A stretch of DNA of 64,000 bases from Octopus vulgaris. Its lineage: Eukaryota. A program made the position numbers and the translations under genes. Where the stretch lies: NCBI GenBank assembly GCA_951406725.2, contig OX597817.1, positions 63,426,001 to 63,490,000 of the forward strand. Reading direction: 5' to 3'. Under the pieces are notes generated by a model that worked only from the letters and a program-made list of their open reading frames with translations, was not told where the DNA came from and did not search any database. Every line of letters starts with the position of its first letter. The stretch's first letter is position 1. Shown here in pieces: positions 10,244-62,588 of this stretch.

Positions 10244-10595
10244 TAGGGTATCTAAGAGATACCACCACGCAGGTAATAGCAGCCAAAACTTGACTCTAAA
10301 ACCACATTAAATATTCATACAGCACTAGGAGAGAAGACAAGAGGACAAAATAAACTATCAAAAAATTACTGGATGATTCCAGATCCCGGATTTCTGGCTC
10401 TGCATAAGAAATACTTTGCCTCATCAGTCGAATAAACACAGATACTTTGCCTCATCAGTAAAATAAGCACAGATAGTGTTTATTTTATACTTTCGTCTTC
10501 TCTCCTAGCGCTGTATGAACATTTAATGTGGTTTTAGAGTCAAGTTTTGGTTTTGGCTGTTATTACCAGCGTGGTGGTATCTCTTAGATACCCTA
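10244..10595. repeat. Fold-back inverted repeat (~95-bp arms) with an HHR-like motif in the spacer
   Basis: Arm 10244-10338 (tagggtatctaagagataccaccacgc...) is the reverse complement of 10495-10595 (...gcgtggtggtatctcttagatacccta). Confidence 0.9.
10381..10428 (-). ncRNA. Hammerhead-ribozyme-like motif, partly decayed
   Basis: Minus strand: a-CTGATGA-GGC...GCC-A-GAAA-TCCGGGA-TC; the core plus start of stem II is duplicated at 10441-10459. Confidence 0.45.
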
Positions 10596-36651: not shown

Positions 36652-37702
36652 CAGGGATTGGACAAAATAGTGAAAACACCTAGCAGCGTAGCATCATAAT
36701 TTTGAAATATCTATAAAACTGTCAAAAGCTTGTTTATTATGTTTTTGATTTATTAGTGTTGCTTAATATGTTTTGCTAAAATTGCTGTTTCTTTTCAGAT
36801 ATCATCAGAAAAAGGAAATTAAAATTCATTAAAATGACAGACCCGGCGGACTTTCAAAGAGGTAAAGTTGTTGATGCTCGTATGGCAGGCGCTAGCGTAA
36901 TGAAAACAACCGAAATGTTTGGTGTATCAAGAAGTACTGTCTTGAAAGTAATAACACCCTTTGAGAAAAAGGGAAAAAACCTCTTCCTCGAAACAAAACT
37001 CTAGAAAAAACCAAAACTTTCAGATAAGGACCGTCGGACTCTTATTGTTAAAAAGGATCACAAAAGTACACCACCCAAAATTACTGCAGAGCTGAATGAC
37101 CAAAAGAAACATTTGACAGCCAAAAGAAGCATTTGACCCAGACTGCCTTCTTCCAACTGTTAAACATGGATGAGGACCTGTGATGATCGGGGGGGGGGGG
37201 GCTACATCTGGGAAATTCGCAGGCCCAATGGTTTCCTTTCATAGCAGAATTAATAGTTAAGACTATTTATGTTTTTTTTTATCTGATCAAATTCATCCTA
37301 TGGTTGCAGAACTGTTTCCGGAAGGAAACGCAATCTTTCAGGATGACAATGCACCAATTCACACAGTTAAAGTTGTCCCTGAATGGTACGTGAAACATTC
37401 TAGTGAAGTTGAACATCTTATCTGGCCAACACAGTCCCCAGATCTCAATATTATTGAACAATTATGGTGCATATTAGAAAAACAAGTAAGGAGTGGATAT
37501 CCTCCACCATCATCACTACAAGAACTGTAGACTATTTTAGCTGAAGAATGGACAAAAATTCCTTTGGAAACAATTCAAACTTTGTACGAGTCCATACCTC
37601 GTTGAATTCAAGCTGTAATTACTGCCAAAGGCAGTCCTACTCTGTATTAAAATAAATTTGTTTGAAATTTTAAGGTGTTTCCATTATTTTGTCCAACCCC
37701 TG
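36652..37702 (+). mobile_element. Tc1 element (DD34E), internally deleted and frameshifted, both TIRs present
   Basis: TIRs cagggattggacaaaatagtgaaaacacct / aggtgtttccattattttgtccaacccctg-TA; MTDPADFQRGKVVDARMAGAS N-terminus; FQDDNAPIH...WPTQSPDLNIIEQLW. Confidence 0.92.
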
Positions 37703-39570: not shown

Positions 39571-39726
39571 TAATTAATCCTGGTTAAGAGTACTAAATCT
39601 TGCACCCCTCCACCAAGTGATATCGAGCAAGTGTGAAAGAGTAGGCTCATCAAAGAAGCATGATCTCGTAAAGAGAACATGCTGAGTCCTGCATCCTGTA
39701 GTGGACTGAATATAGGCAATGCAATT

Positions 39727-40175
39727 CAATACCACAGATTTGCTTGTCAGTAGTTTGACCTTAACCAGTTGACCATGTCCTTGAGTGGCTGACGATATAT
39801 GCATCTCTGATCACGAGCAGAAGTAGTGGGGGAGCATCATAGCCATGTGTTGAGAGGGATTCTTTGGGCTTTGAATAATTCACCTTTGGAAACATGGGTT
39901 TTTCGTTCAACATCCTTAAACAACCCTTATTCAGGGACCTTTTGAGCGGGATGGGCTACTCGACCAGAAGAAAATTCTAACTGGGCCCCACCTGCAAGGT
40001 CATGTGCTGTTTATTTTGATATGAGATCACCATGTCGCGCACATATGGTTGTGATGAATGTGCCTAGTGTATCCTTATCGGACAGGTAGCCATGATGGGT
40101 ATACTGGGCTTCGTATATTTTACCCCAGTGTCACTTTGATGGCATGCACTGCTCTCTCACTCAATGATGATGATG

Positions 40176-40231
<56 letters not shown>

Positions 40232-40773
40232 GTACCAGGCAGTGGCTCTCATGGCTTCTGATCTTAACTGATTGGAAGTGTTATCATGTACATTGTTTTG
40301 TCTTGGTATAAAAGATGGGCTACAGCAAATATTCTGCTCAATACCACAGATTTGCTTGTCAGTTGTTTGACCTTAACCAGTTGAGCATGTCCCTTAGTGG
40401 CTGACGATATGTGCATCTCTGACCACGAGCAGAAGTAGTGGGGGAGCATCATAGCCATGTGTTGAGAGGGATTCTTTGGGGTTTTGAATAGTTCACCTCT
40501 GGAAACATGGGTGGTTCTTTCAACATCCTTAAACAACCCTTATTCAGGGACCGTTTGAGCGGGATGGGCTACTCAACCTGAAGAAAATTCTAACTGGGCC
40601 CCACCTGCAAGGTCATGTGCTGTTTATCTTGATATGAGATCACCATGTCGCGCACATATGGTTGTGATGCATGTGCCTGGTGTACCTTTATCAGACGGGT
40701 AGTCATGATGGGTATATTGGGCTTCGTAAATTTTACCCCAGTGTCACTTTGATGGCATGCACTGCTCTCTCAC
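39727..40773 (+). mobile_element. Two tandem copies of a ~440-540 bp retroposed repeat, each ending in (TAA)n
   Basis: 39727-40163 and 40339-40773 are near-identical (caataccacagatttgcttgtcag...gatggcatgcactgctctctcac), each followed by (TAA)n. Confidence 0.85.
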
Positions 40774-40807
<34 letters not shown>

Positions 40808-40809
<2 letters not shown>

Positions 40810-41460
40810 GACCCACCACACAACCTCTTTCGACATAGCCACCAAGCAAAAAAAAAAAATTGCTTTTCCTTCCCGGCTTAAGGACATTCTTAACGAAGGA
40901 CTCGGACGATAGCCGGATCCGTCTAACACGTGACAATAACTGTTCGTCGCAGCTCCACAAGTCAGCAGTGAACGGGCACTTAACGGTTTCTTTGCTCTGC
41001 ATGCACCTCGGACAAGACCGTCTGACTGCACATCCGTGCTTGTAGAGCTTATAACGAACCGGCAGCGCTCCCTCCCCCACCGGTAGCACTGTCAGGCCAG
41101 AAATTTCTGGAAATTATTCATGGGCCCCGGCCCGAAAGTCCTCCGGAAGAGACCAGCCAGTTGATCCCTCTCGACGCTCACAGTCTCTCCGAGATCGTCG
41201 TCGCTCTTGCCCTCCACTGATCCATATAGAACTCTGTGGTGGAACTTGCACTGACGGCATTGCACGACTGGCCGAGGGCTGTGAGCGCTTGAAGACACTC
41301 TAAGTATCACGCGTCCTGTCTGGGTCTACGCCTGATCCAAGACTTTAGCTCCGTCAAGGGGACGAGCTGCGGAAAAGCGTGTCTAAGAAACGGCGACCAC
41401 ACCTGCCCACCGCTAAGGTATCGCTAGAGATATCGCAACTTCAGCGCATGTCTGTGTATC
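40808..41460 (-). mobile_element. L1/Tx1-like LINE C-terminal fragment between (TAA)n tracts
   Basis: GALPVRYKLYKHGCAVRRSCPRCMQSKETVKCP..LW resembles the zf-RVT/CCHC region of L1/Tx1 ORF2. Confidence 0.65.
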
Positions 41461-47772: not shown

Positions 47773-48178
47773 CGTACGAGATATGATCAATAAGTATCTG
47801 GTCTGTTGCCATAGTAACAAAGCTAAAGCACGCAGAGTGAAGCCGCTTGGCAAAAGTTGACCTTGAACACTGCTGTTTTAACGTTCTAGCTCACTGCCGT
47901 TGTTTACAGCAGTGCTTGGAATGAACGCGTGGAGCGTGTGATCATTGCATTGACCATGACAGAGAAAGTTTTCATGGCGATACTTGCTCAAAGGTCTGTA
48001 GAAAGCTGCAGAAAGTGTATGGGGAGGAGTGTATGAGCCGCACACAAGTGTACGAGTGGTTCAGAAGTTTCCAAGATAGCCGAAAAAATTTCGATATTGA
48101 CAACCATTCTGGGAGACCCGCAACCAGCAGAAATGAGAAAAAAAACGCAGATGTGCGTGCAGCTGTGAGGGGAAATAT
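47773..48178 (+). mobile_element. Mariner 5' fragment (TIR plus N-terminal HTH coding), truncated by a palindrome
   Basis: tacgagatatgatcaataagtatc TIR-like start; LQKVYGEECMSRTQVYEWFRSFQDSRKNFDIDNHSGRPATS. Confidence 0.8.
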
Positions 48179-48291
48179 GTCACATGTTTTTTAGAAATCA
48201 TATATCAGCGCTTGCATCTACTCTAGTAGACTCTTCAGATTCTACTAGAGTAGATGCAAGCGCTAATATATGCTTTATAAAAACATGTGAC
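48179..48291. repeat. Fold-back palindrome (~52-bp arms) centred on a decayed hammerhead core
   Basis: gtcacatgttttt..agcgcttgcatctactctagtaga-ctcttcagat-tctactagagtagatgcaagcgct..aaaaacatgtgac; minus strand AT-CTGAAGA-GTCTAC-taga-GTAGAT-GCA-AGCGCT-G-AT. Confidence 0.85.
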
Positions 48292-48305
48292 ATATTAATA
48301 AAACA

Positions 48306-48777: not shown

Positions 48778-48824
<47 letters not shown>

Positions 48825-48977
48825 AATTAAGGACTGAACACGAAAAGTGGACAGTCAACATGCTAGATATAGACGTCAAATCGCCATTCACCACAAAAGA
48901 TTATGTTCTCAGATCAAACTCAACACTTTTCGTGTTCATAATAAACAAGTGAAAAATATACGAAATAAAATAATTAC

Positions 48978-49041
48978 CCATGTACTAATTAGTTTCAGCT
49001 GTTATTTTCCGCAAGGAAAACTGCAGCCATCATCAGCATGG
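48978..49041 (-). ncRNA. Canonical type I hammerhead ribozyme (copy 1)
   Basis: Reverse complement of 49878-49941. Confidence 0.8.
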
Positions 49042-49877
49042 TCCGTTATAAATGTAATTTGCTGGACTAGATGCAAACACGATACCGAAATATCGCGTGC
49101 ATGGAGTTCAGCCTATTACATTTGAATATATCTTTCAAATGCCTTTACTTTGGCGCGTTGAAATCCGAGAAAACTAGCCTGCAACTAATAATTAGCAGCA
49201 GTCAATTTATCGGTTAGAGAACATATTTATTTATATAAAATTAATTAAGGGTAGAAATTGATATTTATCAATTAAGACCAGTGGTCTAGCATATTAAAAA
49301 AGAATCCGAAGATTAAAATATTTATATATACCAATTAAGGACTGAACACGAAAAGTGGACAGTCAACATGCTAGATATAGACCCAAATCGCCATTCACCA
49401 CAAAAGATTATGTTCTCAGATCAAACTCAACACTTTTCGTGTTAGACCACTGGTCTTAATTGATAAAATCGCCTATTAATTTTATAAATAAATATTCTAA
49501 CCGATAAATTGACTAATTAAGCTAGATTATGATATATTCAAATAATCAGATCAAACTCAACACATTTTCGTGTTCAGTCCTTAATTGGTATATATAAATA
49601 TTTTAATCTTCGGATTCTTTTTTAATATGCTAGACCACTGGTCTTAATTGATAAATATCAATTTCTACCCTTAATTAATTTTATATAAATAAATATGTTC
49701 TCTAACCGATAAATTGACTGCTGCTAATTATTAGCTGCAGGCTAGTTTTCTCGGGTTTCAACGCGCCAAAGTAAAGGCATTTGAAAGATATATTCAAATG
49801 TAATAGGCTGAACTCCATGCACGCGATATTTCGGTATCGTGTTTGCATCTAGTCCAGCAAATTACATTTATAACGGA

Positions 49878-49941
49878 CCATGCTGATGATGGCTGCAGTT
49901 TTCCTTGCGGAAAATAACAGCTGAAACTAATTAGTACATGG
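49878..49941 (+). ncRNA. Canonical type I hammerhead ribozyme (copy 2); predicted cleavage after A49936
   Basis: CCATG-CTGATGA-T-GGCTG-cag-TTTTCC-ttgc-GGAAAA-taa-CAGCT-GAA-ACTAATTAGT-A-CATGG: stem I CCATG/CATGG, intact core, stem II, palindromic stem III, GUA triplet. Confidence 0.82.
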
Positions 49942-50209
49942 GTAATTATTTTATTTCGTATATTTTTCACTTGTTTATTGCTATGGTTTTGTGTTGAGTT
50001 TGATCTGAGAACATAATCTTTTGTGGTGAATGGCGATTTGACGTCTATATCTAGCATGTTGACTGTCCACTTTTCGTGTTCAGTCCTTAATTGGTATATA
50101 TAAATATTTTAATCTTCGGATTCTTTTTTAATATGCTAGACCACTGGTCTTAATTGATAAATATCAATTTCTACCCTTAATTAATTTATATATATATATA
50201 TATATATCA

Positions 50210-50486
50210 CCATGATCACCGGTGATGCTGTTGCACATCGCTGGTCACAATGCGCTTTGCATTGTTTTAGCCTTCAAGTGACGCCACCTCGCTGCCTAAG
50301 CGAGCAGGCCAACAGAAGAAAGAGTGAGAGAAAGTTGTGGCGAAAGAGTAGAGCAGGGATCGCCACCACTCCTGCCGGAGCATCGTGGAGCTTACGGTGT
50401 TTACGCTCAATAAACACTCACAACGCCAGGTCTGGGAATCGAAACCACGAGTCCGCTGCCCTAATCACTGGGCCATTGCGTCTCCA
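50210..50486 (-). mobile_element. SINE family C copy
   Basis: Minus strand ggagacgcaatggcccagtgattagggcagcggactcgtggtttcgattcccagacc. Confidence 0.8.
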
Positions 50487-50496
50487 TATATATATA

Positions 50497-50910
50497 GGCG
50501 CAGGAGTGGCTGTGTGGTAAGTACATGGTTCTGGGTTCAGTCCCACTGCATGGCACCTTGGGCAAGTGTCTTCTACTATAGCCCCGGGCCGACCAAAGCC
50601 TTGTGAGTGGATTTGGTAGACGGAAACTAAAAGAAGCCCGTCGTATATATGTATATATATATATATATTTATGTGTGTGTGTGTGCATGTATGTATGTCT
50701 GTGTTTGTCCCCCCAACATCGCTTAACAACCGATGCTGGTGTGTTTATGTCCCCGTAACTTAGCGGTTCGGCAAAAGAGACCGATAGAATAAGTACTGGG
50801 CTTACAAAGAATAAGTCCCGGGGTCGAGTTGCTCGATTAAAGGCGGTGCTCCAGCATGGCCGCAGTCAAATGACTGAAACAAGTAAAAGAGTAAAAGAGT
50901 AAAAGAGTAA
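50497..50910 (+). mobile_element. SINE family A copy
   Basis: Head, internal microsatellite, tail ending (TAAAAGAG)3. Confidence 0.9.
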
Positions 50911-57805: not shown

Positions 57806-57955
57806 CAAGTATGGAAAACGATTAAATTTATGGAAACAATTAAATCGTATATTTTTATAATTTTATTCACTACAATAATGTTTTGGAAATTTGCCGCTGC
57901 ATTCAAAATGGTCTATACACACATGGTGACGCAAGTATTTTTTAGCACTCAGTGA

Positions 57956-58013
57956 TACTCACTGATGAAGACTAATTGTTTATCACAGGGTTCGAAATTA
58001 CGGGATACGAGTA
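57956..58013 (+). ncRNA. Decayed type I hammerhead motif
   Basis: TACTC-a-CTGATGA-AGAC...GTTC-GAA-ATTACGGGAT-A-c-GAGTA. Confidence 0.5.
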
Positions 58014-58228
58014 CATCTGGGCACTCATTTGCGATTTTAGCTCGCTAACATAAGTTGTTTCTTATTATTTATTCGTTACCTCAAACTCACCACTGCGTAT
58101 AAGTGACTATGGTTTTTGAGTCGTTTTGACTCCTGTTTGTAGCAAAGCTGGTGCTATATAGTACCCTGATTATAAATTAATAATAATTTTTACCTTTATG
58201 GCTATTTTAATGCTTGCTAGTCACTTAT

Positions 58229-58405
<177 letters not shown>

Positions 58406-58629
58406 TAATAATAATATGTTTGTATATATATATATATATATATTTTGTGAAATAGAAAGATGAATAATCTTGTTGCAGATTAATCAAAAGTTTAACCGAT
58501 ACCTTGGTAGCAAAAATCACAGCAGAAGACGGCACGGTTGGAGGTACAACCATATGGTGTTGCAACCGTGCGTTGGTGCGGATAATTGAATTTTAATATT
58601 ATTAGTGAATTGAAGAAATGGAGTGGAAC

Positions 58630-58765
58630 GAAGATTGAACAGAAATCGTTTTATTGCATTCTACACGTGTTTCGAAAGGCACAATTTACCAAATTCCGGA
58701 ATTTGGTAAATTGTGCCTTTCGAAACACGTGTAGAATGCAATAAAACGATTTCTGTTCAATCTTC
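58630..58765. repeat. Perfect loop-less palindrome (68-bp arms) containing a hammerhead 3' half
   Basis: Centre ttcc|ggaa at 58697/58698; the arm reads ..cctttc-GAA-ACACGTGT-A-gaatgc. Confidence 0.92.
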
Positions 58766-59129
58766 ACTAATAATATTATATATATATATATATATATGAT
58801 AATTCTTAGAGCGAGTTATAAACAGTAGCTGCAACACATCGTGACGTATATTTGCCATTTATATATTTTCATATATATATATGAATGAGCAATAATAGTA
58901 GTATGTTGTATATGCTAGAAATTAGTTGTGAAATTTGACTTATTTAATGATATTGTTGATGCTACTTTGTCGAGATTATGTAGAGGCATGAAGGTGATCA
59001 GGAATTTCAGGCTCAATTTTTGTCAATTTTGAGTGTAGAGATCGGGTTTAACATTCATCTTGCTTATGTATCAGGATTTTATATGAATCAGTTGGAAGAA
59101 ACCTGCTCACATAAATATGTAGTGGGGAA

Positions 59130-61332: not shown

Positions 61333-62588
61333 GTTGGCAACTAAGTTCCCGCCGTTGTTTTAAATTAAAGTTTTTTTAAAGGTTTAAAAAAAAAAAGAAT
61401 AATTAATCAATAATGTATTCACCCTTGCTGTTTACAAATTCTTCCCAATGTTCAATAAGATTTTCAATACCTCGTTGGTAGAAATCACCCAATTTCGACT
61501 CTAATTATTGATCCAACCAAGCTCTCAATTCTGTATCAGTATTGAACAAACCTCCGCGCATAGCATTTGAAAGAGATCGAAAGAGGTGGAAATCTGTTGG
61601 TGCCAAATCAGAAGAGTATGGCGGGTGTGGCACCACTTCCCAGCCATGCGTTTGAATGGCTTCCTTGGTCATATTGGCGATATGAGGGCGGGTGTTGTCG
61701 TGCAGTGAACTCCGTTTTGTCGATTAGGTCTTTTCTCTTGAATAGCCGTGTTGAGTCGTTCCGCCGTGTTGAGTCGTTCTCTTGAATAGCCGCGTTGACC
61801 GTTTGGTTCCGTTCAAGCAATTCGTAATGGATAATCCCTTCCCAGTCCCACCAAACGCACAACAGCGTTTTACGCGGAGGAAGAGCTTGTTATACGCGCG
61901 GTGTCGCTTGTTTACCGGGTGGGGGCACCACTTTTCGTCGGCAGTAACGATTCGGTAAAGAAATCGTTGCTTGTGTCCATGAGTTGAGCGGTGACGAGCA
62001 AGCAAACCAGTGGAGATTGTGGCTCGTTGATTTTTTTTGTTGTCACTTAAAGCATGCAGAACCCATGCACCATACTTTTGAACCTTTCCCATCGAGTGAA
62101 GATGTTTCTCTATAGCAGTGTGGGAGCATTCTATTTTCTCTGCCAGTTCCCATGTCATTTGATGAGAATTTTAGTGCAAAATTTGGTTTAATTGCTCTTT
62201 ATGGAACTCAACTGGACGACCAGAACGAGATGCGCTTTTGAAGTCAAAATTTCCATTTATGAACTTGGCGTACCAATCACGAGCGGTTTATTCAGCTATG
62301 GCATCCTCTCCATACACAGCACAAATGTCGAGAGCAGCTTTTGTGGCCTTAGAACCTTGATTAAAAGCAAAAAGAAAGGGTTGTCGAAAATGCTCGATTT
62401 TCTTAACTTGACATTCCATTTTAATGATCTGAAAATGAACAAAAATTAACTAAAATTAACTAGAAAAAAACGTAAAATAGATTCCAAAATGATTCAAAAA
62501 TAGAATTTTCAAAACAAAAAAAAATAGATTCCAAAATTTAAAAACACAATAAATTCCAAAATTTTAAAAAACGGCGGAAACTTAGTTG

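What the first reader, a model, noticed from the sequence alone, without database searches (positions are those of the whole stretch)
48823..50188. ~507-nt ribozyme-bearing monomer in tandem and inverted arrangement: candidate retrozyme or non-autonomous Penelope-like element
Seen: one full monomer plus ~0.2 of the next in one orientation (48823-49440), and another ~1.2 monomers in the opposite orientation (49565-50188) with a different start point, so the unit is circularly permuted. The copies are almost identical, there is no credible ORF, and (TA)n lies on both sides. Each orientation has a textbook type I hammerhead (CUGAUGA/GAAA, 5-bp stem I, palindromic stem III ACUAAUUAGU, GUA site). 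Established: Penelope-like elements carry hammerheads in pseudo-LTRs that occur in tandem or inverted form, and animal non-LTR retrozymes are tandem non-coding monomers processed by type I hammerheads into circular RNAs. Inference: this is a young non-coding family copied from a circular or multimeric ~507-nt RNA.
Basis: partly seen in the sequence, partly recalled or inferred. Interest (0 to 1): 0.82.

Follow-up and report, generated by a model that had tools for sequence, protein, structure and literature searches.

The report
Two-armed hammerhead retrozyme, Penelope-style insertion
This is one young copy of a highly repeated, non-coding 506-base element with a predicted self-cutting RNA motif, sitting in a TA microsatellite as two back-to-back arms whose ends suggest that a Penelope-type jumping-gene enzyme likely copied it from both sides of one DNA break; the class is known, and neither cutting nor a circular RNA has been shown.

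Summary
The structure is real. A 506-nt unit (508 in one arm) forms two 1.2-unit arms, head-to-head inside (TA)n. Each arm has one type I hammerhead with an extra U at position 9a, a trait reported for Penelope-element hammerheads. The unit folds far better than shuffles (z -7.3) and is a high-copy family in public runs under four organism labels. No Penelope ORF lies in the window. The 'circular permutation' is not random: the outer ends sit on the unit's two longest TA tracts, 159-166 and 251 nt past the cut site, and read data suggest both ends recur. That matches the two-start-site 'tail' and inverted layout of Penelope-like insertions. Best reading: an animal non-LTR retrozyme copied by Penelope machinery from both ends of a break. 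The template crossed an intact cut site (circle, uncut multimer or template jump). The arms differ in one 13-nt segment, which argues against one circle copied twice. With one hammerhead per strand, this copy cannot release a monomer itself. Cleavage, circles and the partner enzyme are untested; the central 120-nt patchwork was not seen in reads. This scan noted the same kind of element before, in this and other genomes.

The parts
48786..48822 (.). Left (TA)n tract, the likely insertion target; the boundary with arm A is blurred by the unit's own TATATATA
48815..49433 (-). Arm A: 619 nt, 1.2 units (period 508), ribozyme sense on the minus strand; its 3' end is at the unit's 8-nt TA tract
48927..48939 (+). 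13-nt replacement in arm A of 11 nt present in arm B; 12 of its letters equal 49565-49576, the inner start of arm B
48978..49041 (-). Type I hammerhead of arm A; predicted cut after the minus-strand A at 48983
49434..49443 (+). Second occurrence (10 nt) of the same switch segment, at the inner end of arm A
49444..49547 (+). Junction patchwork: colinear copy of about 173 nt of the sense unit (49632-49805) shrunk to 104 nt by several deletions; locus-specific or an assembly error
   Evidence: no cover at 49469-49537 in 4 runs
49548..49564 (-). 17-nt piece in arm A orientation, joined to arm B by the same switch (third occurrence)
49565..50187 (+). Arm B: 623 nt, 1.23 units (period 506; the 117-nt overlap is 100% identical); its 3' end is at the unit's 6-nt TA tract
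49580..49691 (+). Three imperfect copies per unit of CTTAATT-N(1-8)-ATAAATA (49580-49600, 49643-49657, 49670-49691). The first and third hold the TA tracts where the arms end; candidate priming or recognition signal (inferred)
   Evidence: 8 matches in the window, all in the element, 0.04 expected (pattern chosen after seeing it)
49878..49941 (+). Type I hammerhead of arm B: stem I 5 bp, CUGAUGA plus extra U, 12-bp interrupted stem II, GAAA, palindromic stem III, GUA; predicted cut after A49936
50188..50207 (.). Right (TA)n tract

Best explanation
This is one young copy of a high-copy, non-coding 506-nt repeat with a predicted type I hammerhead (an animal non-LTR retrozyme) that was likely pasted into a (TA)n tract by the enzyme of a Penelope-like element, priming from both ends of one break. 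Proposed steps. (1) Tandem copies elsewhere are transcribed (inferred). (2) The hammerhead cuts after A49936, probably best as a double hammerhead through the palindromic stem III (predicted), and monomers may be circularised (by analogy). (3) A Penelope-type GIY-YIG/RT protein cuts both strands of (TA)n (inferred from PMC11167929). (4) Each DNA end primes inside the RNA at one of two TA tracts, 159-166 and 251 nt past the cut site (positions shown here; priming inferred). (5) Many cDNAs seem to stop before or near the cut site; here both ran through it for 1.2 units, so the template was an uncut multimer or a circle, or the enzyme jumped templates (unresolved). (6) The two cDNA ends were joined head-to-head through a 10-12-nt homology with abortive skipping synthesis, leaving the patchwork (inferred).
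For: Layout: partial tandem plus an adjacent inverted 5'-truncated copy, one end longer than the other, in (TA)n. This is the described Penelope-like layout (PMC8557442). The anole Penelope protein cuts and extends both strands of AT-rich DNA and starts at two internal RNA sites that make the tail (PMC11167929). The outer ends sit on the only two (TA)3+ tracts of the unit. In reads, loose (AT)n follows the first tract in 7 contigs of X11, and summed depth falls 3.5-8.3-fold across 49681 in 4 of 4 DNA or unlabelled runs. The stretch from just past the cut site to the second tract is 1.9-10.2 times deeper than the rest in 4 of 4 runs (depth is not copy number). Nine of 15 listed joints are inversions like this one, and 8 of those 9 start 50-76 nt past the cut site. 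[quoted passage not shown] The circular fold is -140.2 against -97.8 +/- 5.8 kcal/mol, 0 of 60 shuffles reaching it. The cofold minimum of two ribozymes is the double hammerhead, -48.6 kcal/mol. None of the 10 substitutions listed at 10% or more touches the core, and the listed insertions behind 49930 fall in the stem III loop. GC is 33% and there is no ORF.
Against: No partner element was found: no Penelope RT or GIY-YIG among 121 frames of the window, and no genome was held. The tail is 85-92 nt, not the usual 30-40. The anole enzyme starts at RNA sites not homologous to the target, whereas here the sites match (TA)n. The monomer is predicted to misfold: the core strand pairs with the stem III strand with probability 0.94-0.95 in two of three contexts, and stem I is lost in the third. 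Rfam misses the motif. In the 2026 preprint 8 of 9 tested frog retrozyme dimers did not cleave. The depth steps come from contig depths that the tool says are no copy number, and the peak bin is AT-rich. The joint cluster may be biased because the reference offered only 49400-49443 in arm A orientation. Locus-specific junctions were not confirmed in reads.
Confidence: 0.7

Rival explanations
1. The unit is only the terminal (pseudo-LTR and tail) piece of an autonomous Penelope-like element, and this locus is a 5'-truncated insertion of that element, not an independent family.
For: Same layout and hammerhead type as Penelope ends. The part 3' of the cut site is much deeper in reads than the rest, as a shared terminal piece would be. 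Loose-end tables were cut (262 and 597 rows not shown), so links to an ORF could be hidden.
Against: Both arms repeat head-to-tail at 506-508 nt with no ORF between repeats. The head-to-tail joint 50070 to 49565 is in 4 of 4 runs (5-12 contigs each), and one X4 contig covers nearly the whole unit. The whole unit folds as a self-paired circle. No Pfam hit in any frame.
Confidence: 0.12
2. One ordinary insertion was later duplicated and inverted at the DNA level (fold-back or repair), or the inverted arm and patchwork are assembly or base-calling errors at a palindrome.
For: The arms are more than 99% alike outside one segment and share the same letter at three sites where 35-81% of family depth has another (table 3, my division). 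The same strand switch occurs three times. Sequencing errors at long inverted repeats are known (recalled).
Against: The arms end at different unit positions, each on its own TA tract and its own (TA)n flank, which a fold-back of one arm does not give. Similar inversion joints exist in 4 of 4 public runs. An unrelated two-armed insertion in (TA)n lies at 58444-58767 of the same window.
Confidence: 0.1
3. A LINE enzyme (L1/Tx1, RTE or similar), not a Penelope enzyme, copied one uncut multimeric RNA of about 2.4 units by classical twin priming.
For: Arm B's inner start (49565) lies only 24-31 nt before the tract where arm A is primed (49589-49596), close to twin-priming geometry (recalled; PMC2837659 seen in a listing only). 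One X3 joint starts exactly at 49589. A mixed 508/508/506 tandem RNA would explain the segment that differs between the arms.
Against: There is no poly(A) or LINE-like 3' end, both ends are internal to the unit, and 8 of 9 inversion joints do not have this geometry. The hammerhead has a Penelope-type trait. The geometry bears on the template (one multimer) more than on the enzyme and also fits a Penelope protein.
Confidence: 0.08

Closest known systems
Animal non-LTR retrozymes (Cervera and de la Pena 2020, PMC7229834, parts 2-4 of 6 read; Li, Clavereau and Pollet 2026, bioRxiv 10.64898/2026.07.22.740005, parts 1-3 of 5 read, supplements closed)
   Same: Short non-coding tandem unit, type I hammerhead with short palindromic stem III, GC under 50%, strongly self-paired predicted circle, high copy number, Penelope elements proposed as mobilisers.
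   Different: At 506 nt it is above the 150-450 bp of the 2020 paper but inside the 51-972 bp of the 2026 preprint. It forms two head-to-head arms with defined ends in (TA)n, a layout not described for retrozymes in the parts I read. This locus has one hammerhead per strand, so it fails the preprint's 'active' criterion. The monomer is predicted to block its own core, whereas most animal retrozyme circles were predicted to leave it free.
Endonuclease-bearing Penelope-like elements, especially the Hydra clade (Craig et al. 2021, PMC8557442, passages read) and anole Poseidon PAc (Frangieh et al. 2024, PMC11167929, parts 1-2 of 4 read)
   Same: Partial tandem plus adjacent inverted truncated copy, a one-sided tail from two internal start sites downstream of the hammerhead cut, and an AT-rich or (TA)n target. 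Hydra elements combine canonical hammerheads with (TA)n insertion and occur in molluscs.
   Different: No RT or GIY-YIG ORF. The tail is 85-92 nt against 30-40. The start sites match the (TA)n target, while PAc starts at non-homologous AC-rich sites. Which clade is the partner was not tested.
Penelope-element hammerheads (Cervera and de la Pena 2014, PMC4209133, passages read)
   Same: [quoted passage not shown]
   Different: G-U instead of the conserved G10.1-C11.1 pair; a full 5-bp stem I and a 3-4-bp stem III, so not a minimal motif.

Membership tests
Animal non-LTR retrozyme | Short head-to-tail repeated unit | tested here: met
   1.2-unit tandems at 506 and 508 nt; head-to-tail joint in 4 of 4 runs
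Animal non-LTR retrozyme | One type I hammerhead per unit | tested here: met
   Descriptor search: 2 hits against 0 in 200 shuffles; not matched by Rfam
Animal non-LTR retrozyme | Non-coding, GC under 50% | tested here: met
   GC 33.4%; longest stop-free frame 104 aa on the antisense strand, no Pfam hit
Animal non-LTR retrozyme | Multi-copy family | tested here: met
   20 of 24 listed runs, 4 organism labels, 10 studies hold 53-90% of the words; 919-1,872 contigs per run lay on the stretch
Animal non-LTR retrozyme | Highly self-paired predicted circle | tested here: met
   z -7.3, 0 of 60 shuffles, 66% paired
Animal non-LTR retrozyme | Two consecutive units with complete hammerheads (the 2026 preprint's test for an active locus) | tested here: not met
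   One hammerhead per arm, on opposite strands. This classes the locus as an inactive offspring copy; it does not test the family.
Animal non-LTR retrozyme | Self-cleavage at the predicted site | not testable with these tools
   Folding favours an inactive monomer and an active dimer
Animal non-LTR retrozyme | Expression as linear and circular monomer RNA | tested here: inconclusive
   Only contigs were available and no holder is on record as RNA. One contig of X4 (RNA is a guess) spans the intact cut site and nearly the whole unit.
Penelope-like element (autonomous) | RT plus GIY-YIG ORF | tested here: not met
   None in the element or in 121 frames of the window
Penelope-type insertion footprint | Partial tandem with adjacent inverted 5'-truncated copy | tested here: met
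   compare
Penelope-type insertion footprint | One-sided tail from two recurrent internal start sites | tested here: inconclusive
   An 85-92-nt tail at this locus. Recurrence rests on 7 loose-end contigs in one run and depth steps in 4 runs; no genome-wide count was possible.
Penelope-type insertion footprint | Microsatellite or AT-rich target | tested here: met
   (TA)n on both sides; a target-site duplication cannot be read inside (TA)n
Penelope-type insertion footprint | Shared terminal sequence with an autonomous partner | not testable with these tools
   No genome held; metagenome and prokaryote scans empty

The most novel reading that the evidence does not exclude
A Penelope-type enzyme opens both strands of (TA)n and primes both DNA ends on circular retrozyme RNA. 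It pairs with TA tracts set in a thrice-repeated CUUAAUU...AUAAAUA signal and rolls through the religated ribozyme junction. The arms would then be a direct genomic record of circular RNA used as a retrotransposition template, and of how Penelope inverted repeats and tails arise.
Probability: 0.25. Interest if true: 0.7.

Novelty: new member of a known kind. Interest (0 to 1): 0.45.

Why it matters
Retrozyme mobilisation by Penelope-like elements has been argued from shared hammerheads, co-occurrence and terminal homology. How Penelope tandem and inverted insertions form is named as an open task. A 506-nt ORF-free unit with two defined end sites is a small substrate for testing both. One can ask whether the template is a circle, an uncut multimer or a cut monomer, and whether priming needs homology to (TA)n. 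I found no paper on a cephalopod retrozyme or on two-armed retrozyme insertions in searches (open-access library only; listings seen), and an Octopus vulgaris repeat annotation has no mention of hammerhead, ribozyme or retrozyme in its main text. The class itself is known, so the gain is mechanistic detail.

Tried and rejected
No genome was held, so no copy map or partner search. Rfam gave nothing at gathering score and no hammerhead family to E=10. Exact-pattern scans of metagenome contigs and prokaryote genomes found 0. Sequence look-ups in the scan's notes found no look-alike and nothing near. No RNA holder was listed, which is no evidence on expression. The patchwork had no cover at 49469-49537 in X1, X2, X3 and X11, and only slight X2 depth at 49446-49468 and 49538-49560; a hole proves nothing. 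The right junction could not be tested because reads were cut at 50173-50218. Random start points: rejected. Stem-loops at the two end sites: they appear in the circular fold but are not stable alone (z 0.5 and 0.54), so I do not claim them. Pol III A and B boxes (recalled consensus): 0 matches. A second hammerhead in the unit or its antisense: none. One circle copied from both ends: disfavoured at this locus, because 48927-48939 differs from arm B and recurs at 49434-49443; repeated template switching could still explain that. Copy number was not estimated, because contig depth is no copy number. The host is probably an octopus-like cephalopod (my recall of the repeat landscape, and wording in the scan's notes); not tested. 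Supplements of the 2026 preprint were closed, and those of the other papers were not opened; they may list related families.

Full report
Observation. The repeat is real. Exact-match decomposition and alignment give arm A at 48815/48823-49433 (619 nt, period 508) and arm B at 49565-50187 (623 nt, period 506), in opposite orientation, with (TA)n at 48786-48822 and 50188-50207. In ribozyme sense the arms point outward: their 3' ends join the (TA)n tracts and their 5' ends meet in the middle. They differ by two substitutions (49164, 49184), a 1-nt deletion with a substitution near 49383, and a replacement of 11 nt by 13 nt at 48927-48939. Arm B's 117-nt overlap is identical. No other copy lies in the window. 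None of the element's frames, and none of 121 selected frames of the window (75 aa or more and not low-complexity, plus frames of 25 aa or more in arm B), matches a Penelope RT or GIY-YIG domain in Pfam.

The ribozyme. Each unit has one type I hammerhead (49878-49941 on +; 48978-49041 on -). It has a 5-bp stem I, CUGAUGA, an extra U, a 12-bp stem II broken by a 2x2 loop and opened by G-U, then GAAA, a palindromic stem III and GUA ending at A49936. A strict descriptor finds these 2 and 0 in 200 shuffled windows. Rfam does not find it, so 'textbook' is too strong. [quoted passage not shown] GUA sites occur in active natural hammerheads (PMC1636495, passages). As a monomer the predicted fold is inactive: -21.4 against -18.3 kcal/mol, with the core strand paired to the stem III strand at probability 0.95 (82 nt) and 0.94 (whole unit). 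In a third context stem I is lost. For two copies the minimum-energy fold is the double hammerhead (-48.6). These models ignore tertiary contacts, so they suggest dimer-dependent cleavage but do not show it. The whole unit as a circle folds at -140.2 kcal/mol against -97.8 +/- 5.8 for 60 shuffles, none reaching it. Because the two hammerheads lie on opposite strands, no transcript of this locus can be cut twice to free a monomer.

The family. No genome was held, so I used public runs. Twenty of 24 listed runs, from 10 studies and 4 organism labels, hold 53-90% of the unit's words. In four DNA or unlabelled runs 919-1,872 contigs lay on 49400-50070, and the head-to-tail joint 50070 to 49565 is present in all four. 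None of the 10 substitutions listed at 10% or more hits the catalytic core. Insertions of T, AT or G behind 49930 fall in the stem III loop (23 further rows were not shown). One 480-nt contig of X4 (RNA is only a guess) matches 49683-49743 and 49771-50172 with one other letter and spans the intact cut site; it has 16 letters in place of 27, so its unit is about 495 nt. This is compatible with a circle, an uncut transcript or DNA.

The ends are not random. The unit has only two tracts of three or more TA repeats, of 8 and 6 nt. Arm A ends on the first, 159-166 nt past the cut site, and arm B on the second, 251 nt past it. Both lie in a motif, CTTAATT-N(1-8)-ATAAATA, found three times per unit; all 8 window matches are in the element, against 0.04 expected, though I chose the pattern after seeing it. 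Three read-level hints suggest these ends recur. Loose (AT)n follows the first tract in 7 contigs of X11. Summed depth falls 5.4, 3.5, 3.9 and 8.3-fold across 49681. The part from just past the cut site to the second tract is 3.7, 1.9, 2.9 and 10.2 times deeper than the rest. The tool warns that depth is no copy number and the peak bin is AT-rich, so these are hints. Of 18 joints, 15 were shown; 9 are inversions from arm A orientation to arm B orientation, and 8 of the 9 start 50-76 nt past the cut site (six from X2). The reference offered only 49400-49443 in arm A orientation, which can bias this cluster, but it shows that head-to-head joints exist in other copies in all four runs.

The junction. 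49444-49547 is a colinear copy of about 173 nt of the sense unit shrunk to 104 nt by deletions. The same strand switch occurs three times (48926/7, 49433/4, 49564/5). The simplest reading is that arm A's template carried the variant segment in two successive units, and that its 10-12 nt of identity with 49565-49576 let the two cDNA ends anneal after some abortive synthesis. That means the arms came from different units, and argues against one circle copied from both ends. Repeated template switching, or an assembly error, remain possible; the patchwork was not seen in four runs. Arm B's inner start is also within 24-31 nt of arm A's priming tract, near the geometry of twin priming on one uncut RNA of about 2.4 units (geometry recalled).

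Mechanism. Penelope-like insertions are partial tandems with an adjacent inverted truncated copy and a one-sided 30-40-bp tail; Hydra-clade elements have canonical hammerheads and insert into (TA)n, while cephalopod Naiads are described as long inactive (PMC8557442, passages). The purified anole Penelope protein cuts and extends both strands of AT-rich DNA, starts at two internal RNA sites that define the tail, and does not need hammerhead cleavage (PMC11167929). The locus fits this point by point, with two differences: an 85-92-nt tail, and start sites that match the target. I therefore favour two-ended priming by a Penelope-type protein on retrozyme RNA (0.7). Shown: the anatomy, the end positions, high copy number and the folding predictions. 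Inferred: cleavage, the enzyme, priming by homology and the template form. Rivals: a terminal piece of an autonomous element (0.12), DNA-level inversion or assembly error (0.10), LINE twin priming (0.08).

Comparison and novelty. The family meets the sequence-level features of animal non-LTR retrozymes (PMC7229834; bioRxiv 10.64898/2026.07.22.740005), which are proposed to be non-autonomous Penelope derivatives. Cleavage and circles are untested, and 8 of 9 frog elements tested in the preprint did not cleave. This locus fails the preprint's criterion for an active copy. It is not an autonomous Penelope element. Searches listed no paper on cephalopod retrozymes or two-armed retrozyme insertions. 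The scan's own notes describe the same layout for several families in this and other genomes, including a 490-495-nt family that may be this one. My sequence look-ups did not confirm that, and those notes are not independent support. Verdict: new member of a known kind, with a useful insertion footprint; interest 0.45.

Noticed in passing
window 58424-58797: A second, unrelated two-armed insertion between (TA)n tracts: a perfect 136-nt palindrome (58630-58765) with a long left arm reaching about 58444 and a short right arm; no hammerhead core word was listed there. It looks like a 5'-truncated Penelope-type insertion.
   Followed up: partly
window 57955-58025: CUGAUGA ... GAAA ... UC with weak flanking pairing; a possible decayed hammerhead, but its fold is no better than shuffles (z -0.71).
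   Followed up: partly
window 48180-48296: About 115-nt imperfect hairpin (MITE-like) just after a Mos1/mariner transposase fragment at 47925-48191 (Pfam HTH_48, E 1.9e-6).
   Followed up: no
window 50223-50470 and 50490-50900: Two very high-copy short repeats on the right flank. The first reaches summed depths in the millions in X1 and X3; the second has about 12 further matches in the window. SINE-like by recall.
   Followed up: no
window 39726-40787: A 450-nt direct repeat (93%, spacing 612) next to a weak zf-RVT match at 40736-41113; perhaps a LINE end.
   Followed up: no
window 37261-37527 and 61611-61889: Tc1/mariner transposase fragments (DDE_3, E 4e-11; Transposase_1, E 3e-10).
   Followed up: no
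Not tested.
   Followed up: no
window 10411-10475: A 31-nt tandem pair in which each copy carries CUGAUGA on the minus strand; no complete hammerhead by the strict descriptor.
   Followed up: no
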